64,000 bases of DNA from an uncultured bacterium (GCA_963718575.1 OY970358.1:450172-514171), one strand, 5' to 3'. Positions 9,926 to 16,546 are shown, counted from the stretch's first letter. Numbers and translations: made by a program. The notes: a model not told the origin generated them from the sequence alone.

Positions 9926-10182
9926 AATAATTGTTAGTTCCCGAAAGTTTCATTGGTTGATTTAATGACTCTTTAATCGTCTTTATGATAGCGCAAAACA
10001 GGCGCTTTGGTCAAGGAAAAACGTGCGACGAGTTTAGATAGTTTTAATGCACTATTTTATAAACTCTCTGCGGGGGTGGCATAGTGCTGAATCTGGACTG
10101 ATAACCGAGATTCACGGGGCGCAAGTCTCCGCACCCCCGCATAAAAATGACAAATGGATATTAAATAAAGATTAAAAACTTT

Positions 10183-10216: not shown

Positions 10217-10285
10217 GGTTGTCAGTCCAGATCATTCAGCGTTATGTTTGAATCGCAAAGAACCCGGCAACGGGTTTTTTGTTTT
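10217..10285 (+). ncRNA. Candidate small RNA (~70 nt) between a consensus promoter and an intrinsic terminator
   Basis: Predicted transcript gttgtcagtccagatcattcagcg... ends in hairpin aacccg-gcaa-cgggtt plus TTTTTTGTTTT. Segment 10222-10241 is complementary to 10093-10108 on the same strand. An upstream hairpin gcgggggtg/cacccccgc (10071-10143) suggests a longer structured region 10060-10285. Confidence 0.35.
10258..10285 (+). terminator. Rho-independent terminator (possibly bidirectional; A-tract upstream, T-tract downstream)
   Basis: aacccggcaacggg tttttt gtttt. Also lies 3' of the minus-strand ORF 10302..10619. Confidence 0.6.
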
Positions 10286-10301
10286 CTGGACGAGACTCGA
10301 A

Positions 10302-10619: not shown

Positions 10620-10712
10620 AAGTAGACTATAACATAATTAATCTTGTGCTCAGGACAGAATTTGGATTGATAAAAAGATTCCTTGCCCTCGTTTTTTAAA
10701 GAATACCCGGAG

Positions 10713-10833
10713 TTTGGCATAGCCATGCATCGTTTTGAAAGGTGTCTCGGAAGCGCGAAGGCGCTGAGAGCCAAGGCAGCTGGTCAGCAGACCAGAACGC
10801 CGTCCTTTCAAAACGATGCATGGCTATGCCAAA
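10713..10833. repeat. Hairpin element E1: perfect 30-bp inverted repeat (10713-10742 / 10804-10833) around a 61-nt loop carrying the motif TCTCGGAAGCGCGAAGGCGCTGAGAG
   Basis: Arms tttggcatagccatgcatcgttttgaaagg / cctttcaaaacgatgcatggctatgccaaa are exact reverse complements. The loop holds sub-hairpins gcgc-GAAG-gcgc and ctggtc-AGCA-gaccag. Located 27 nt upstream of gpmI. Confidence 0.8.
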
Positions 10834-10859
10834 CGCATCGTTTCATCTAAAATAAAGCA

Positions 10860-12395
10860 ATGGCAAAGAAAATGGCGATTCTCGTGGTGCTGGACGGATG
10901 GGGTATCGGCAAGGACTCATACATTAACCCCGTCTTCGTGGCAAAGCCGCCGACATTCCAATGGCTCGCCGAGAACTATCCCCTCACGAGCCTCCAGGCA
11001 TCGGGCATCTCCGTCGGGCTTCCGTGGGGCGAGACCGGCAACAGCGAGGTCGGCCACCTCACGCTCGGCGCCGGCAAGGTCGTCTATCAATATTATCCAA
11101 AGATCATGATGGCGATCCAAGACGGCACGTTCTTCGAAAATCCAGTGCTGAAAGCCGCCTTCGCGCACGCGCGCGATAATAATTCCGCGATCAACTTTGC
11201 GGGACTGCTCACCAAGGCGAATGTGCACGCATCGCTCGATCATCTCCACGCGCTTTTAAAAATGGCGCAGATGGAGAAGGTCACAAGAATAAATCTCCAT
11301 CTTTTCGCAGACGGAGAGGACAGTCCTCCGCATACTGTCGGCGACTTTCTTAAAGAGATCCCGAAGGAATATTTGGCGAGTCTCACAGGCCGCTATTATG
11401 CGATGGATCGCGAGGGCAATTGGCGCCTCACGCAGACCGCGTACGAAGCGATCCTCGGCAAGAGCGGCACGATCGTGGGCGACCCGACGGCGGCGATCGA
11501 GGCCACCTATAAGCACGATGCGACAGAGGAGTATCTTCCTGCACTCCGCTTTTCGGAGGATAAACACCTGAACGACGGCGACGCGCTCGTGTTCTTCAAT
11601 TATCGCGAAGACAGCATCCGCCAGCTGGCGTCCGCGTTCATCAAAAAAGATTTCTCTGAATTCCCCATCGTCCCATTCAACAATCTCTACGTCGCAACGC
11701 TCACCCACTACGATGACACATTCGATGCGCCGTTCGCATTCGCCGCCGACGGGGTCGAGCATCCGCTGGGACGAGTGATAAGCGATGCCGGCCTCACCCA
11801 GCTCCGCCTGGCCGAGACATATAAATATGCGCACGTCACCTACTTCTTCAACGGATTCCGCGAGGCGCCATTCAAAGGAGAATACCGCACGCTCGTGCCG
11901 TCCGCGTCCGGCCCGCATCCCGAAGAACATCCCGAGATGATGGCCGTCGCGATCACCGACCGCCTGATCGAAGCGATCGACAGCCGCGGATTCGATTTCA
12001 TCCTCGTCAACTATTCGAACGCCGACACGATGGGACACAGCGCCAACTTCAAAGCCGCGCTCGAAGCGATCAACGTGCTCGACACGCAGATCGCGCGCGT
12101 CATCAAAGCGGCGGACAATCCCGACACGCTCCTCTTCATCACCGCCGATCACGGCAACGTGGAAGAGATGATCAATGAACGTACCGGCGAACCCGAAAGC
12201 CAGCACGACCCCAACCCCGTGCCGTTCCACCTCGTCGTGCAGGAATATAAGGGAAGAAAGTTCATCAACGCCGACCGCCTCACCACCGAAACGCTCGGCT
12301 CCCTCGCCGACGTCGCCCCCACCATCCTCGCGCTCATGGGCATCCAAAAACCCGACGAGATGATCGGCACAAGTCTGTTGAATGGCCTGATATAG
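10860..12395 (+). CDS. gpmI: 2,3-bisphosphoglycerate-independent phosphoglycerate mutase
   Basis: MAKKMAILVVLDGWGIG...GLPWGETGNSEVGHLTLGAG...ITADHGN: iPGM metalloenzyme motifs. 511 aa. Confidence 0.9.
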   Translation: MAKKMAILVVLDGWGIGKDSYINPVFVAKPPTFQWLAENYPLTSLQASGISVGLPWGETGNSEVGHLTLGAGKVVYQYYPKIMMAIQDGTFFENPVLKAAFAHARDNNSAINFAGLLTKANVHASLDHLHALLKMAQMEKVTRINLHLFADGEDSPPHTVGDFLKEIPKEYLASLTGRYYAMDREGNWRLTQTAYEAILGKSGTIVGDPTAAIEATYKHDATEEYLPALRFSEDKHLNDGDALVFFNYREDSIRQLASAFIKKDFSEFPIVPFNNLYVATLTHYDDTFDAPFAFAADGVEHPLGRVISDAGLTQLRLAETYKYAHVTYFFNGFREAPFKGEYRTLVPSASGPHPEEHPEMMAVAITDRLIEAIDSRGFDFILVNYSNADTMGHSANFKAALEAINVLDTQIARVIKAADNPDTLLFITADHGNVEEMINERTGEPESQHDPNPVPFHLVVQEYKGRKFINADRLTTETLGSLADVAPTILALMGIQKPDEMIGTSLLNGLI

Positions 12396-13090: not shown

Positions 13091-13363
13091 AAAGAATCCC
13101 CAGAACGAACATGGTATATATATATTATTTTTTTCTCATATTTTTGTAATATTTTTCCAAAAGAAAAAATTAAAATCGCAACCATTCCGGAAGCCCAAAA
13201 CCACCAAGGAATAATTTCTAAATGCATAGAAAAGCGAGAATTAATCTCTTTGTCAGAAAAAGCATTCTATAAATCTTAACAGAATTTCCGCCCTTTCTAT
13301 ATATTTACCATACTTACCCTCTGTGTCCTGGGCAGAATTTGAGCCCAATCTCCTTATCACTCC

Positions 13364-13497
13364 CTTCGCTTTTGCAAGGGTGTGTCCTGAGGTTTTCGGG
13401 GCATTCCGGAGGTGCGAAGGCGCCGAGGCTTAGCGATTTTCCAGCAGGAAAATACGCGGCCCCGAAAACCTCAGGACACACCCTTGCAAAAGCGAAG
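13364..13497. repeat. Hairpin element E2: perfect 38-bp inverted repeat (13364-13401 / 13460-13497) around a 58-nt loop carrying TTCCGGAGGTGCGAAGGCGCCGAGGC
   Basis: Arms cttcgcttttgcaagggtgtgtcctgaggttttcgggg / reverse complement. The loop holds ggtgc-GAAG-gcgcc and ttttcc-AGCA-ggaaaa. Same architecture and loop motif as E1, with completely different stem sequences. Confidence 0.8.
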
Positions 13498-13511
13498 ATT
13501 GCTGATATAAT
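13484..13511 (+). promoter_or_regulatory. Strong sigma70-like promoter (TTGCAA -16- TATAAT) ending 7 nt before the rpsA ATG: predicted leaderless transcript
   Basis: TTGCAA 13484-13489 lies inside the right arm of E2. TATAAT 13506-13511. ATG at 13519 has no Shine-Dalgarno. Confidence 0.5.
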
Positions 13512-13518
13512 CATCCTC

Positions 13519-14613
13519 ATGCCACAAACAGAAGATCCGAAGGCGACCACCATCGCACAGGCGCTGAAAACCGAGATATCGACCACCGACTGGCCAAAGG
13601 AGGGCAGCGTTGTTGAAGTCACGCTTTTAAAGCGCCTCCCCCGCAAAGCCTACTTTGATATGGGCCGCTTTGGCACCGGCATCGTGTTCGGTGCAGAGAT
13701 CGCGAATGCGCGCGAAGCGTTGCGCACCCTAAAGCCCGGCGATTCGCTCCAGGCGAAGATCGTCGTCCTCGACGGCGAGGAAGGACACATCGAGCTCTCG
13801 CTCTCCGAAGCCGGCAAGCAAAAACTCTGGGCGCTCGCCAAGGATTATGCGGAATCGGGCGAAGTGATCAAGGCAAAGATCGTTGCCGCGAACGCGGGCG
13901 GGCTCATGACCGTCGTCGCGGATGACCTCAAGGCGTTCCTTCCCGTGTCTCAGCTTTCACTTGAACACTATCCGAAGGTTCCGGACGGCGACCGCATCAA
14001 GATCGCGGAAGAGTTGAAAAAGTTCGTCGGCCAGGAATTGAACGTCAAGATCATCGACGTCAACCCTCGCACGAATAAAGTGATCGTCTCCGAGCGCGAA
14101 GTGCTTTCCGCAAACGTCAAAGAATTGCTCGCCGCATACACGATCGGCCAGGTCATTGACGTGATGGTCTCCGGCACCGCCGACTTCGGCGTGTTCGTCC
14201 GCTTCACCGACAATCCGCAGATCGAGGGCATGATCCACATCTCCGAGCTGGATTACAAGTTGATCGACAACCCTAAGGAGCTCGTCAAAGTGAACGATCC
14301 GTTGAAAGCAAAAATTATTGATATCAAAGAAGGCCGCGTCTTCCTTTCGCTCAAAGCGCTCAAGGAAGATCCGTGGGTCAAAGCCGGCGACAAGTTCAAA
14401 CCGGGCGAGACCGTCCAGGGCAAAGTCTATAAGTTCAATCCGTTCGGCGCGGTCGTCGCGCTCGACGGCGACCTCCAAGGCATGGTGCACATCTCCGAAT
14501 TCGGCGGCCAGGACGAGATGAAGAAAGCGCTCACCGTCGGCGAGACCTATCCGTTCGTCATTGACACCGTAAAGCAGGAAGAGAAGCGGATCACGTTGAA
14601 GACGAAGAAATAA
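13519..14613 (+). CDS. rpsA: 30S ribosomal protein S1-like protein (four S1 domains, short form)
   Basis: Repeated S1 OB-fold units (GSVVEVTLLK...; GEVIKAKIVAANAGGLMTVV; GQVIDVMVSGTADFGVFVRF; GETVQGKVYKFNPFGAVVAL). The ORF track's start at 13339 would read through the E2 hairpin. MPQTED at 13519 is the likely start. Confidence 0.8.
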   Translation: MPQTEDPKATTIAQALKTEISTTDWPKEGSVVEVTLLKRLPRKAYFDMGRFGTGIVFGAEIANAREALRTLKPGDSLQAKIVVLDGEEGHIELSLSEAGKQKLWALAKDYAESGEVIKAKIVAANAGGLMTVVADDLKAFLPVSQLSLEHYPKVPDGDRIKIAEELKKFVGQELNVKIIDVNPRTNKVIVSEREVLSANVKELLAAYTIGQVIDVMVSGTADFGVFVRFTDNPQIEGMIHISELDYKLIDNPKELVKVNDPLKAKIIDIKEGRVFLSLKALKEDPWVKAGDKFKPGETVQGKVYKFNPFGAVVALDGDLQGMVHISEFGGQDEMKKALTVGETYPFVIDTVKQEEKRITLKTKK

Positions 14614-14692: not shown

Positions 14693-14763
14693 GCCGCGAT
14701 AGCTCAATGGTAGAGCACTCGCCTGAAGAGCGAGCTAAGTGAGTTCGATTCTCTCTCGCGGCA
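14693..14763 (+). tRNA. tRNA-Phe (anticodon GAA)
   Basis: Cloverleaf: acceptor GCCGCGA/TCGCGGC, D-arm GCTC-AATGGTA-GAGC, anticodon arm CTCGC-CTGAAGA-GCGAG, T-loop TTCGATT (one T.T mismatch in the T-stem), discriminator A, no encoded CCA. Confidence 0.8.
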
Positions 14764-16276
14764 CAAGAGTAGAAACTAGATTTTTTTCAGAAAAATTTTT
14801 GCGCGATGCGCACAGCGCATCGTTAGGTGGGGTGGGGGTAACGACGAGAGAACGGGAAGAAAGAAAGAGGGTCGAGCCGAAGAATTTTTTTGCCGAGAGT
14901 TTTTTCTGCGTGAGGGTGGGGGCAAGAGCGGTTTCCGTCAGATTTTCTGCGTCTTTTATCCACTCTCTTAGGGGTTCGAGCCAAGCGACCTGTCCTTTTT
15001 GCAAAGAGGCCATTTCTTCCTCCAGCCCCTTCTTGCGGAGAAGAAGCACCGACCTCTGTTCTTGGTATTGCTCTTTGCCGATGCTCTCCTCCAACCGGAC
15101 TTCGAGCAGGATGCTTAGCTTCTTCTCAATGGCCGATATTTCGCCTCTCGTCGCTTGGCTCGCGGCGGCGGACGACTGGATGGCCTCCTGTTCGTCCTTG
15201 TCCGCCATCCTGTTCAATTCCGCCGCCCAATCATGGGGCAAGGCGTATTGGGTCATAATATCTGAAAGCTCGGCTGACAACGCTTCCTCTCGGATGAAGG
15301 GTTGGGAGCAAGTGCCCTTCTTCTTCGTGCATCGGTAGTAGGTGTAGGTATGGACGTTCCCGTTCTTCTGATGCTTGGTCTTTGTTTCGGCCGTGATGCT
15401 CATGCCGCACTCGCCGCAACGCAACAGGCCGCAAAGAGGGCTTGCGTTATTCTCCGGCTCATGGCGCGGTCGGCTTCGCTCTTTCAAAACCTCCTGTACT
15501 TTATCAAAAAGTTTCTTCGAGATGAGCGGCGGATGCTTGCCCTCATATAACTCTCCGGCGTAGCGGAACATACCGATATAGAAGGGGTTGGTGAGAATGG
15601 CTTTCACTTGGTCGCGCTTCAACGGCTTGCCGCCTCCGCCACTCCATCGCTTCGTTGCTCTCGTCTTGATGCCGTGGTTGAAAAGAAACATCGACAAATC
15701 CTCCAAGTGGGATTTGTTCTCGGCGGTAAGTTCAAACAGCTTTACCAAAACAGGAGCTTCGCGCCTGTCCCTTACGACGAGTTTGCGGGCTACATCGTTC
15801 ATATATCCGGGCGGGGCAACCGAAGGATACTCGCCCCGTTTGGCTTTCTCGTGTAGGCCGCGCTTGGTATTCGCGCTCAAGTCGCGGACATATTGGGTAG
15901 CCGCCGCGAACTCAACCGACATGAGAAGCCCGTTGTCCTCGGACTGATAGTCGTGCTCATAGGTGCGGACTTGCTGTATCGTGCCGATTTGGTGAAGCCA
16001 TCGTATTTTCCCGTCGTCCCACGGATTGCGGGCTAACCTGTCGAGTTTCCAACATAAAATACCCTGCGCCTCGCCCCGTTCAATCCTCTCTATCATCTGA
16101 TTGAAGACGGGGCGGCCGGGTTTCTTCGCCGTCTCCTTCTCGGTGAACTCGTGAATGATGCTAAGTCCTTCTTGCTTGGCTAAGGCTCGCAACACGGAAA
16201 GTTGGTCTTCGATAGAGCGTATCTGCCTGTCTTCGGCTTCGGATGATTTGCGGGCGTAGAGGAAATATGAGGTCAT
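14735..16276 (-). CDS. Large serine recombinase (resolvase/invertase catalytic domain + recombinase domain + zinc ribbon)
   Basis: MTSYFLYARKSSEAEDRQIRSIEDQ (catalytic Ser region), ...KLDRLARN..., a Cys-rich CGLLRCGECG...YYRCTKKKGTC zinc ribbon and a C-terminal coiled coil. The 3' end overlaps the tRNA-Phe 3' end. Start taken at MTSYF (16276); ORF track start 16348. Confidence 0.85.
   Translation of the reverse strand: MTSYFLYARKSSEAEDRQIRSIEDQLSVLRALAKQEGLSIIHEFTEKETAKKPGRPVFNQMIERIERGEAQGILCWKLDRLARNPWDDGKIRWLHQIGTIQQVRTYEHDYQSEDNGLLMSVEFAAATQYVRDLSANTKRGLHEKAKRGEYPSVAPPGYMNDVARKLVVRDRREAPVLVKLFELTAENKSHLEDLSMFLFNHGIKTRATKRWSGGGGKPLKRDQVKAILTNPFYIGMFRYAGELYEGKHPPLISKKLFDKVQEVLKERSRPRHEPENNASPLCGLLRCGECGMSITAETKTKHQKNGNVHTYTYYRCTKKKGTCSQPFIREEALSAELSDIMTQYALPHDWAAELNRMADKDEQEAIQSSAAASQATRGEISAIEKKLSILLEVRLEESIGKEQYQEQRSVLLLRKKGLEEEMASLQKGQVAWLEPLREWIKDAENLTETALAPTLTQKKLSAKKFFGSTLFLSSRSLVVTPTPPNDALCASRKNFSEKNLVSTLVPRERIELT
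14762..14935. repeat. IR1-left: 174-bp arm, exact reverse complement of 19343-19516
   Basis: Checked base by base at both ends and in the middle. Begins 2 nt inside the 3' end of tRNA-Phe and contains the last ~57 codons of the serine recombinase. Confidence 0.9.
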
Positions 16277-16333
16277 GCAATAAGTGTATCCCATCTTGGG
16301 ATATGCCGCAAGAGGATATACGATTAAGTTGAA

Positions 16334-16546
16334 ATGACGAACGTTCAAGCAAAAGACTATAGGGATTTTCTAAAACGTCTCCGTAAAGCCCGTGAAGAAG
16401 TTGGGCTACTACAATCCGATGTCGCCAAGAAGCTTGGAAAACCACAATCTTATATTTCAAAAGTGGAATCGGGAGAACGGCGTATTGATTTCATAGAGTT
16501 GAAAAAACTTTCGATGATTTACAAGAAAAAACTAGATTTTTTCTAA
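16334..16546 (+). CDS. XRE-family helix-turn-helix transcriptional regulator (Cro/CI-like)
   Basis: 70 aa; LLQSDVAKKLGKPQSYISKVESGERRIDFIELKKL is a classic HTH_XRE. Divergent from the recombinase gene with a 57-bp shared control region. Confidence 0.8.
   Translation: MTNVQAKDYRDFLKRLRKAREEVGLLQSDVAKKLGKPQSYISKVESGERRIDFIELKKLSMIYKKKLDFF

What the first reader, a model, noticed from the sequence alone, without database searches (positions are those of the whole stretch)
10713..10833. E1: perfect 30-bp stem hairpin with conserved GCGAAGGCG loop motif directly upstream of gpmI
A 121-nt element has two perfect 30-bp arms and a 61-nt loop containing TCTCGGAAGCGCGAAGGCGCTGAGAG plus two sub-hairpins (gcgc-GAAG-gcgc and ctggtc-AGCA-gaccag). 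A second element (E2, 13364-13497) has the same architecture and nearly the same loop motif but completely unrelated stem sequences. Its sub-hairpin stems covary (ggtgc-GAAG-gcgcc; ttttcc-AGCA-ggaaaa). A conserved loop with covarying stems is the signature of a selected RNA or DNA structure rather than a simple repeated sequence. Both elements sit in the promoter/5' region of plus-strand housekeeping genes, with the right arm overlapping the -35 region.
Basis: seen in the sequence. Interest (0 to 1): 0.75.

Follow-up and report, generated by a model that had tools for sequence, protein, structure and literature searches.

The report
Capped palindrome repeat at gene boundaries
E1 and E2 are two copies of a large repeat family, absent from Rfam, found in Patescibacteria (CPR bacteria): a conserved two-hairpin "cap" on a long palindromic stem unique to each locus, sitting exactly at gene boundaries, function still unproven.

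Summary
E1 has 31-bp perfect arms and a 61-nt loop. E2 has 39-bp perfect arms and a 56-nt loop. Both loops fold into the same two hairpins. No third copy (E3) exists in the window.

The motif is not local. Pattern scans recovered about 20 copies from Patescibacteria genomes and 118 or more metagenome loci, giving 124 unique elements. None came from 2.9 million viral contigs, and no Rfam family matches. Covariation is very strong: 99.3% of cells pair, against 72% in shuffles.

Only the cap and about 10 bp of stem base are conserved. The outer arms are specific to each locus. At orthologous loci (gpmI, S1 gene, fusA) the arms have diverged to 47-77% identity, yet each element keeps 0-2 arm mismatches. 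The elements are therefore old, vertically inherited and homogenised. They lack shared termini and target duplications, so they are not MITEs.

The right arm either overlaps the 3' end of an opposite-strand gene, tRNA or 23S rRNA, or carries the -35 of a rightward, often leaderless, promoter. E1 and E2 are of the promoter type.

Best reading (confidence about 0.4): a hairpin that marks transcription-unit boundaries, with a cap bound by an unknown factor. The main rival is a selfish DNA palindrome.

The parts
10712..10742 (+). E1 left arm (P1 5' strand), 31 nt. The inner 10 nt (TTTTGAAAGG) are the family's semi-conserved stem base.
   Evidence: Perfectly complementary to 10804-10834. The outer part TTTGGCATAG is conserved in gpmI orthologs L126 and L127.
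10746..10770 (+). E1 cap hairpin P2: CTC / GGA / AGCGC / GAAG loop / GCGCT / GA / GAG
   Evidence: Folding. The invariant positions C-GGA, GAAG and GA-G, and the covarying stems, are seen in 104 distinct copies.
10775..10801 (+). E1 cap hairpin P3: GGC-AG-CTGGTC-AGCA-GACCAG-AAC-GCC
   Evidence: Folding. All 9 P3 pairs show compensatory changes across the family.
10804..10834 (+). E1 right arm (P1 3' strand). Its outer end carries the -35-like ATGCCA (10826-10831) of the gpmI promoter.
   Evidence: The segment CTATGCCAAA plus the flank up to TAAAAT-N6-ATG is conserved in L126 and L127, and the same arrangement with a diverged arm end (CTATGAGAATC) is kept in L128.
10848..10862 (+). -10 box TAAAAT (10848-10853) and the gpmI start codon (10860), 6 nt apart. 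This predicts a leaderless mRNA.
   Evidence: gpmI was identified by Pfam.
13364..13402 (+). E2 left arm, 39 nt
   Evidence: 100% complementary to 13459-13497. The outer part CGCTTTTGCAAGGG is conserved in S1-gene orthologs L149, L156 and L171.
13406..13428 (+). E2 cap hairpin P2: CC / GGA / GGTGC / GAAG / GCGCC / GA / GG. It contains a U-G pair that forms only on the + strand.
   Evidence: 77 bits to model R1.
13433..13457 (+). E2 cap hairpin P3: GCG-A-TTTTCC-AGCA-GGAAAA-TA-CGC
13459..13497 (+). E2 right arm. It carries the -35 TTGCAA (13484-13489).
13504..13521 (+). Extended -10 (TGATATAAT, with the hexamer at 13506-13511) and the ATG of the S1-domain protein gene (13519), 7 nt apart.
   Evidence: The S1 domains were identified by Pfam.

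Best explanation
E1 and E2 belong to a large family of "capped palindromes" found only in Patescibacteria. Each element has three layers:
P2 carries the invariant unpaired bases C-GGA...GAAG...GA-G. P3 has a hypervariable stem, an ANYA loop and a closing ACGC.
2. A semi-conserved stem base of 8-11 bp (UUUUGARGG / CCYYUCAAAA).
3. Outer arms of 10-40 bp that are specific to the locus and (almost) perfectly complementary.

My proposal is that they act as folded-nucleic-acid markers of transcription-unit boundaries in these compact genomes. At most loci the hairpin starts right at the 3' end of the gene, tRNA or 23S rRNA on its right, and would form or protect that 3' end by termination and/or cleavage of double-stranded RNA. 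At the E1 and E2 loci the same hairpin sits directly upstream of a leaderless housekeeping promoter, with the -35 inside the right arm. There it would shield the promoter from incoming transcription or supercoiling. The cap would be the docking or nucleation module for a conserved host factor that is still unidentified.

The perfection of the arms is maintained at the DNA level, by correction of one arm against the other or by template switching. Cap segments are exchanged among copies.

Shown: the structure, covariation, distribution, orthology, positions and mode of evolution. Inferred: that the element is transcribed, that it terminates or is processed, that it insulates, and that a factor binds it.
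For: - The structure is real and selected: 99.3% of cells pair against 72% in shuffles and 32-42% in slid controls, and 14 of 17 pairs show double changes.
- The family is large and restricted in lineage. About 20 genome loci are all Patescibacteria; the remaining hits in GC-rich phyla have no stem. Metagenome loci number at least 118. Viral contigs gave none.
- The elements are old and vertically inherited. The same element sits upstream of gpmI in relatives with 74-80% protein identity, upstream of the S1 gene, and after fusA. Orthologous arms are 47-77% identical yet have 0-2 mismatches within each element. Even a synonymous change in the last fusA codon (CGC-TAA versus AGA-TAA) is mirrored in the other arm.
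- Placement at boundaries is precise. The stop codon of the right-hand minus-strand gene lies a median of about 5 nt inside the arm, for more than 25 different gene families including tuf and fusA. tRNA 3' ends lie 0-1 nt from the arm. The 23S 3' end lies 10-20 nt away, inside the 23S-5S spacer.
- An outward promoter abuts the right arm in 32 of 118 elements, against 5 in shuffles. The -10 often lies 6-7 nt before the ATG.
- At one orthologous site a canonical bidirectional terminator with a similar stem takes the element's place (L036 versus L212).
- The outer half of the 3' arm is U-rich, the polarity expected of a terminator.
- The stems are almost exclusively Watson-Crick. That is expected if the hairpin must form on both strands, that is, work in both directions.
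Against: - There is no transcript evidence at all.
- E1 and E2 lack a U-tract and are not called as terminators. They sit between divergently oriented genes, where termination is not obviously needed.
- Cap orientation relative to the direction of transcription is mixed (22 versus 17 in tandem-gene contexts). An RNA-level role for the strand-asymmetric cap is therefore hard to reconcile with one mechanism.
- G-U pairs slightly exceed A-C pairs on the cap's + strand (54 versus 28 in all). Yet in most 3'-end contexts the + strand is antisense to the gene.
- No partner protein has been identified.
- The whole element can be absent from a close relative (L174 versus L148). Identical caps also occur on unrelated arms. 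Both are typical of selfish repeats as well.
Confidence: 0.4

Rival explanations
1. A selfish palindromic repeat acting at the DNA level, comparable to REPIN or PATE elements. The roughly 80-nt cap unit spreads or converts among pre-existing hairpins at gene ends, or builds its own arms by fold-back copying of the right-hand flank. It persists because palindromes homogenise themselves. Any effect on termination or promoters is a by-product.
For: - Multi-copy, at about one per 30 kb.
- Identical 61-nt caps occur on unrelated arms at different loci, while orthologous loci carry different cap subtypes.
- P2 alleles are mosaic: L200 and L237 have the same arms but differ by two compensated pairs in P2.
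- Presence/absence differences remove the whole element (L148 versus L174). In L212 a cap sits where L036 has a plain terminator with a similar stem.
- L125 keeps a decayed half-copy.
- A one-sided geometry suggests the right flank is the master copy and the left arm a copy of it.
- Near-absence of G-U pairs points to DNA-level correction.
Against: - No target-site duplications, no shared termini, and no associated transposase next to E1 or E2.
- None in 2.9 million viral contigs.
- No two non-orthologous copies share arms.
- Retention at the same housekeeping loci across 20-25% protein divergence in streamlined genomes, and conservation of the unpaired cap bases from Saccharibacteria to Paceibacterota, argue for host-level selection.
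Confidence: 0.27
2. A cruciform promoter device that responds to supercoiling. At loci such as E1 and E2 the DNA palindrome extrudes as a cruciform under negative supercoiling. This hides the -35 (which lies in the right arm) and throttles the leaderless promoter. The cap hairpins stabilise or nucleate the extrusion.
For: - The -35 lies inside the arm, 3-9 nt from its end, and the -10 lies outside, in E1, E2 and their orthologs. The arrangement is enriched on one side only.
- Pure Watson-Crick pairing on both strands.
- E1 and E2 lie between divergently transcribed genes, where negative supercoils accumulate.
- The apex GCGAAGGC resembles very stable DNA mini-hairpins of the d(GCGAAGC) type (my own knowledge).
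Against: - Only about a quarter of elements abut a promoter. Most abut 3' ends, where positive supercoiling is expected.
- It does not explain the strand-specific conservation of the cap or its fixed orientation relative to the promoter.
- There is no experimental support.
Confidence: 0.1
3. A cis-regulatory leader RNA or trans-acting small RNA. The + strand RNA is made from its own or an upstream promoter. It either senses a ligand or protein to control gpmI or the S1 gene, or acts elsewhere with the long arms serving as guides.
For: - The unpaired cap bases are purine-rich (tandem G-A type), which is typical of RNA motifs.
- G-U exceeds A-C on the + strand.
- A promoter-like site at 13276-13305 could transcribe E2.
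- Saccharibacteria copies after rplL show alternative arm pairings like an attenuator (L023, L098, L177).
Against: - No positional promoter signal upstream of the left arm across the family (7 observed versus 6.5 in shuffles).
- E1 and E2 lie upstream of the -35 and -10 of leaderless genes.
- The flanking genes are functionally unrelated, and most are met at their 3' ends on the opposite strand.
- The arms match nothing else in the window or in viral contigs.
- No Rfam family matches.
Confidence: 0.1

Closest known systems
REP / BIME elements and REPINs of proteobacteria
   Same: Dispersed, multi-copy palindromes outside genes, lying at gene 3' ends and between genes. They evolve in concert and are compatible with roles in termination or mRNA 3'-end protection.
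   Different: In REP and REPIN elements the palindrome sequence itself is the conserved repeat, mobilised by a RAYT transposase. Here only the apical cap and about 10 bp of stem are conserved. The long arms are specific to each locus, and no RAYT link was found or tested.
MITEs such as Correia (Neisseria), RUP, ERIC
   Same: Small (100-150 bp) non-coding intergenic elements that fold into hairpins. Some of them carry or create promoter hexamers at their ends and are cut by RNase III when transcribed.
   Different: MITEs have family-wide terminal inverted repeats and target-site duplications. Both were tested here and are absent. The conserved and variable parts are reversed: here the centre is conserved and the ends vary.
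Bidirectional intrinsic terminators
   Same: They start at or just after stop codons and tRNA ends. The polarity is an A-rich 5' arm, a G/C-rich middle and a U-rich 3' arm in part of the family. One ortholog has a canonical terminator with a similar stem at the same site.
   Different: The stems are 25-50 bp instead of 5-13 bp. An 80-nt conserved three-way junction replaces the 3-8 nt loop. E1 and E2 have no U-tract. Copies in the 23S-5S spacer cannot be simple terminators.
TIGR-Tas stem-loop arrays / box C/D-like guide RNAs (PMC12045711, also found in CPR bacteria)
   Same: Units with variable but consistently palindromic flanking stems around short conserved motifs with G-A pairs. Both occur in Patescibacteria.
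   Different: Those units are tandem arrays next to a Nop-domain Tas gene, and each carries two unpaired 8-12-nt spacers between box C and box D. Here the copies are solitary and dispersed, with no Tas neighbour, no spacers and no box C or D consensus.
T-shaped terminal hairpins of parvoviruses (AAV ITR) and folded single-strand sites such as integron attC
   Same: A long stem capped by two small hairpins (a three-way junction). Recognition would be of a folded strand rather than of duplex sequence.
   Different: This is an analogy of shape only. ITRs are genome ends with conserved stems. attC sites conserve the stem base and vary at the apex, the reverse of what is seen here.

Membership tests
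Any Rfam 15 family | Match to a curated covariance model at its gathering score | tested here: not met
   At gathering thresholds the window gives only 7 tRNAs. At E<=10 the E1 and E2 region hits only generic miRNA-precursor hairpins far below their thresholds.
MITE (e.g. Correia, RUP) | Terminal inverted repeats shared by all copies of the family | tested here: not met
   Outer arms resemble each other only between orthologous loci, never between different loci. The arms of E1 and E2 are unrelated.
MITE (e.g. Correia, RUP) | Target-site duplication flanking the element | tested here: not met
   Direct repeats of 2-9 nt at the arm boundaries occur at chance level in 120 elements.
REP / REPIN | The conserved repeat is the palindrome itself (a stem with a conserved 5' tetranucleotide) | tested here: not met
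   The stems are specific to each locus. Conservation is confined to the cap and the innermost roughly 10 bp.
REP / REPIN | A cognate RAYT (Y1 transposase) gene in the genome | not tested
   Only six neighbouring ORFs were scanned (RNase Y, gpmI, S1 protein, serine recombinase and two unknowns). The whole genome was not available.
Intrinsic (Rho-independent) terminator | G/C-rich stem followed directly by a U-tract | tested here: not met
   For E1 and E2 the consensus scan calls no terminator at either element's 3' edge, and the outer 3' arm of E2 is A-rich. Across the family the result is inconclusive: the outer 3' arm has at least 6 T in 10 in 19 of 96 elements, against at least 6 A in 2.
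Riboswitch / cis-regulatory 5' leader | Lies inside the 5' UTR, in the sense orientation, of a functionally coherent set of genes | tested here: not met
   E1 and E2 lie upstream of the -35 and -10 of genes whose ATG is 6-7 nt after the -10. Most family members abut 3' ends of unrelated genes, tRNAs and 23S rRNA on the opposite strand.
TIGR-Tas stem-loop array | Tandem array next to a Nop-domain Tas gene, with units holding two 8-12-nt spacers between box C and box D | tested here: not met
   The window has two solitary copies 2.5 kb apart. The neighbours have no Nop domain. The cap is fully structured and has no spacer-like unpaired stretches. The definition is taken from PMC12045711.
Kink-turn (for hairpin P2) | Three-nucleotide bulge followed by tandem G-A / A-G pairs between a canonical and a non-canonical stem | tested here: inconclusive
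   A candidate G-A/A-G tandem and the invariant C-G closing pair are present, but the bulge is a single G (GGA opposite GA) in all 104 copies. The three-dimensional fold cannot be tested with these tools.
Integron attC site | Conserved core sites at the base of the stem with a variable apex, arranged in cassette arrays | tested here: not met
   The arrangement is the reverse: a conserved apex and a variable base. The copies are solitary and lie between housekeeping genes.

The most novel reading that the evidence does not exclude
The cap is the recognition module of a still unknown machinery shared across the CPR. This could take one of two forms:
(a) An RNA "punctuation" system, in which a cap-binding nuclease or termination factor defines the 3' ends of mRNAs, tRNAs and 23S rRNA at the foot of the stem.
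(b) A DNA element that forms palindromes: it copies the right-hand flank (gene end or -35 region) in inverted orientation onto its left side and then keeps both arms identical.
Either would be a new class of genome element, with a conserved apex and arms written by the host locus.
Probability: 0.22. Interest if true: 0.88.

Novelty: new variant of a known kind. Interest (0 to 1): 0.72.

Why it matters
Patescibacteria make up a large share of bacterial diversity. Almost nothing is known about how they terminate, process or insulate transcripts, and very few non-coding elements have been described for them.

This family offers:
- more than 100 examples with textbook covariation;
- a searchable signature;
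- fixed positions next to core genes (gpmI, rpsA-like S1 gene, fusA, tuf, tRNAs, 23S rRNA);
- an unusual mode of evolution, with perfect palindromes that drift in sequence but never in pairing.

If the cap binds a factor, it points to a lineage-specific RNA or DNA machinery. If the arms are built by fold-back copying, it is a new way for repeats to grow. Either way it improves the annotation of CPR intergenic regions, promoters and transcript ends.

Tried and rejected
- **Chance or low-complexity artefact.** Rejected: the motif occurs twice against 0.02 expected, and folding z-scores reach -14.
- **Known RNA family.** Rejected.
- **E3.** No third copy in the window. The 10067-10141 hairpin is unrelated and matches no Rfam family.
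- **Wide phylogenetic spread.** About 100 of the 120 genome hits lie in GC-rich phyla. They have no enclosing stem (arms of 9 nt or less) and low model scores, so they are chance matches.
- **Arms as guides or spacers.** They match nothing elsewhere in the window or in IMG/VR.
- **Phage-borne element.** Zero real hits in viral contigs.
- **MITE.** No target-site duplications and no shared termini.
- **Independent small-RNA gene.** No promoter enrichment or positional -10 signal upstream of the left arm.
- **tRNA-like T-arm motif (GTTCGATTC) left of several copies.** ARAGORN finds no tRNA there. It reads as the conserved C-terminus (..PPFDS..) of a protein gene.
- **Strain comparison.** L001-L003 are identical at both elements and so uninformative.
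- **Comparison with the element upstream of the holin-SecG operon in L127 and L128.** That operon is not in the window.
- **Literature.** Five searches found no description of this element. The only related concept is the TIGR-Tas stem-loop array, and it does not fit.
- **Organism name.** The cluster look-up gave no name. Assignment to Paceibacterota rests on named gpmI homologs and on the titles of the genome loci.

Full report
**1. The observation**

The sequence is as described, with small corrections.
- E1 is a perfect 31-bp inverted repeat (10712-10742 / 10804-10834) around a 61-nt loop.
- E2 is a perfect 39-bp inverted repeat (13364-13402 / 13459-13497) around a 56-nt loop.
- These are the only long perfect inverted repeats in the 64-kb window.
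- Both loops fold into the same two hairpins. P2 is NNC-GGA-RGYGC-GAAG-GCGCY-GA-GNN. P3 is GSS..stem-AGCA-stem..ACGC.
- The shared 21-nt motif occurs twice against 0.02 expected.
- A covariance model built later scores E1 at 78 bits and E2 at 77 bits. Nothing else in the window exceeds 15 bits, so there is no E3.
- Rfam has no matching family.

**2. A large family restricted to one lineage**

The window comes from an uncultured member of the Patescibacteria (CPR), probably Paceibacterota. Identical contigs occur in three JGI metagenomes, and the closest named gpmI homologs are from Candidatus Paceibacterota.

A scan of one genome per species with the P2 motif hit 120 loci. Only about 20 of these carry a long inverted repeat around the motif. 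Every one of those whose record title is listed is Patescibacteria (Paceibacterota, Parcubacteria, Kaiser- and Taylorbacteria, Saccharibacteria). The rest are chance hits in GC-rich genomes.

Two scans of 2.9 million viral contigs gave nothing real. In all I collected 124 distinct elements. Secondary copies in the fetched flanks suggest about one element per 30 kb.

**3. The structure is selected**

On a model-based alignment of 104 distinct cap sequences:
- 99.3% of cells form standard pairs, against 72% when 3' partners are shuffled and 32-42% when they are slid.
- 14 of 17 pairs show changes on both sides.
- All nine P3 pairs covary (first seen).
- The unpaired bases (C-GGA, GAAG, GA-G, the CAGCAG apex, ACGC) are nearly invariant from Saccharibacteria to Paceibacterota.

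P2 looks like a kink-turn but has a one-base bulge. I do not file it as one.

**4. What is conserved and what is not**

Only the cap and the innermost 8-11 bp of the stem (TTTTGARGG / CCYYTCAAAA) are shared. The outer arms are 10-50 nt long and perfect in 66 of 124 elements. They carry 81 mismatches in 3298 positions. They resemble each other only between orthologous loci. There are no target-site duplications. This is the reverse of a MITE or a REP element.

**5. Old residents with arms that evolve in concert**

Relatives whose gpmI is 74-80% identical keep the Wzy-RNase Y-gpmI synteny. Three of four carry the element at the same place and in the same orientation upstream of gpmI. The fourth retains only the 3' part of P3 and the right arm.

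The same holds upstream of the S1-domain gene (E2, L149, L156, L171, L187) and downstream of fusA (L229, L200, L237, L207, L178, L072).

Orthologous arms are only 47-77% identical, yet each element has 0-2 arm mismatches. Even the synonymous difference in the last fusA codon (CGC-TAA versus AGA-TAA), which lies inside the right arm, is mirrored in the left arm.

G-U pairs are rare: about 1% in arms and caps. Such perfect Watson-Crick maintenance over 30-40 bp is hard to obtain from RNA-level selection alone. It points to correction of one arm against the other at the DNA level, to a need for both strands to fold, or to both. This step is inference.

Caps evolve differently:
- They are far better conserved than the arms.
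- Identical 61-nt caps sit on unrelated arms at different loci.
- Orthologous loci can carry different cap subtypes.
- L200 and L237 have the same arms but different P2 alleles, differing by two compensated pairs.

Cap segments are therefore exchanged among copies.

**6. Position: exact and one-sided**

With every element oriented by its cap, the right arm touches a functional feature and the left arm faces an AT-rich spacer.

(a) 3'-end class. The stop codon of a minus-strand gene lies a median of about 5 nt inside the right arm. This holds for more than 25 unrelated gene families, including tuf and fusA. Plus-strand genes on the left end a median of about 12 nt before the left arm. Three tRNA genes end 0-1 nt from the right arm. 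In three loci the element lies 10-20 nt after the 23S rRNA 3' end, inside the 23S-5S spacer, so there it is very probably transcribed as the reverse complement of the cap.

(b) Promoter class. In 32 of 118 elements a sigma-70-like promoter reads rightwards out of the right arm (5 expected from shuffles). The mirror arrangement on the left is at background (9 versus 7), as are inward-facing promoters. In one subgroup the -35 lies inside the arm and the -10 lies 6-7 nt before the ATG, which predicts leaderless mRNAs. E1, E2 and their orthologs are of this kind. In another subgroup a consensus TTGACA-N16-18-TATAAT follows the arm.

In tandem-gene contexts both cap orientations occur (22 versus 17).

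**7. Gain, loss and equivalence**

L148 carries an element where its relative L174 (flanks about 87% identical) has none; both arms are missing with it. L212 carries an element where L036 has a canonical A-tract/stem/T-tract bidirectional terminator whose stem resembles the L212 arms. The outer half of the 3' arm is U-rich across the family: at least 6 T in 10 in 19 elements, against at least 6 A in 2. E1 and E2 themselves have no U-tract and are not called as terminators.

**8. Interpretation**

The best-supported reading is a structured marker of transcription-unit boundaries. In most copies it is a 3'-end hairpin acting by termination and/or cleavage of double-stranded RNA, which is compatible with the position in the rRNA spacer. 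In E1 and E2 it is a barrier fused to a leaderless promoter. The cap would be a docking or nucleation module for an unidentified conserved factor. I put this at about 0.4.

The main rival (about 0.27) is that the cap unit is a selfish DNA repeat. It would colonise or convert hairpins at gene ends, or build arms by fold-back copying of the right flank. The one-sided geometry, the mosaic caps and the presence/absence differences fit that reading. The lack of any transposition signature and the long retention next to core genes in streamlined genomes count against it.

A supercoiling-driven cruciform that hides the -35 (about 0.1) fits E1 and E2 but not most copies.

A leader RNA or small RNA (about 0.1) fits the purine-rich cap and the modest excess of G-U over A-C on the + strand (54 versus 28). 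It does not fit the positions.

**9. Comparison with known systems**

In behaviour the family is closest to REP/BIME and REPIN repeats and to bidirectional terminators. In shape it is closest to T-shaped hairpins. It fails the defining tests for MITEs, REP elements, riboswitch leaders, attC sites and the TIGR-Tas stem-loop arrays recently described in CPR bacteria (PMC12045711). Five literature searches found no description of it.

I rate it a new variant of the known kind "interspersed intergenic palindromic repeat". Its architecture, a conserved apex on arms specific to each locus, is to my knowledge unprecedented.

Noticed in passing
window 10645-10665 and 13322-13346: About 50-70 nt left of E1 and about 20-40 nt left of E2 lies a degenerate sequence (tgtgctcaggacagaatttgg / tgtgtcctgggcagaatttgagccc). 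In orthologs L126 and L128 the same place reads TGGTGC.C..GGCAGGATTCGAAC. That is the reverse complement of a tRNA 3' end (T-arm, acceptor strand and CCA) with no 5' half. ARAGORN calls no tRNA there. It may be a relic of an integrase attachment site.
   Followed up: partly
window 10067-10141: A separate structured hairpin (GCGGGGGTG ... GGGGCGCAAGTCTCC ... CACCCCCGC, with a GCAA loop) lies between the RNase Y gene and a 105-aa ORF. It has no Rfam match and is unrelated to the E1/E2 cap.
   Followed up: partly
window 14693-14763 and 14735-16348: A tRNA gene is directly followed and slightly overlapped by a large serine recombinase gene on the opposite strand (Resolvase, Recombinase and Zn_ribbon_recom domains). 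This looks like the edge of an integrated element just downstream of the S1 gene.
   Followed up: no
window 10848-10862, 13504-21; loci L127, L128, L149, L156, L171, L188: Several housekeeping genes have a -10 box 6-7 nt before the ATG and no Shine-Dalgarno sequence. Leaderless mRNAs may therefore be common in this lineage.
   Followed up: partly
L023:1-130, L098:5070-5170, L177:960-1090 (Saccharibacteria, after rplL): A short-armed variant of the element follows the rplL stop codon in the sense orientation. It has three or four alternating arm copies separated by TAAAT, and in L023 tandem units. This allows mutually exclusive hairpins, like an attenuator in the rplL-rpoB spacer.
   Followed up: partly
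L001:12580-12600 versus L002/L003 and window 13525-13535; L001:5400-9010: One of the three otherwise identical metagenome contigs has a 1-nt insertion just after the S1 gene start. In the same contig the RNase Y and Wzy genes are split into fragments. These are either strain-level pseudogenisation or assembly errors.
   Followed up: no
L065:1077-1285: A group I intron lies inside the 23S rRNA gene of a Patescibacteria contig that also carries the element in its 23S-5S spacer.
   Followed up: no
window 10258-10287: A canonical intrinsic terminator (AAAGAACCCGG-CAA-CGGGTTTTTTGTTTT) shows that ordinary short terminators coexist with the capped palindromes in this genome.
   Followed up: no
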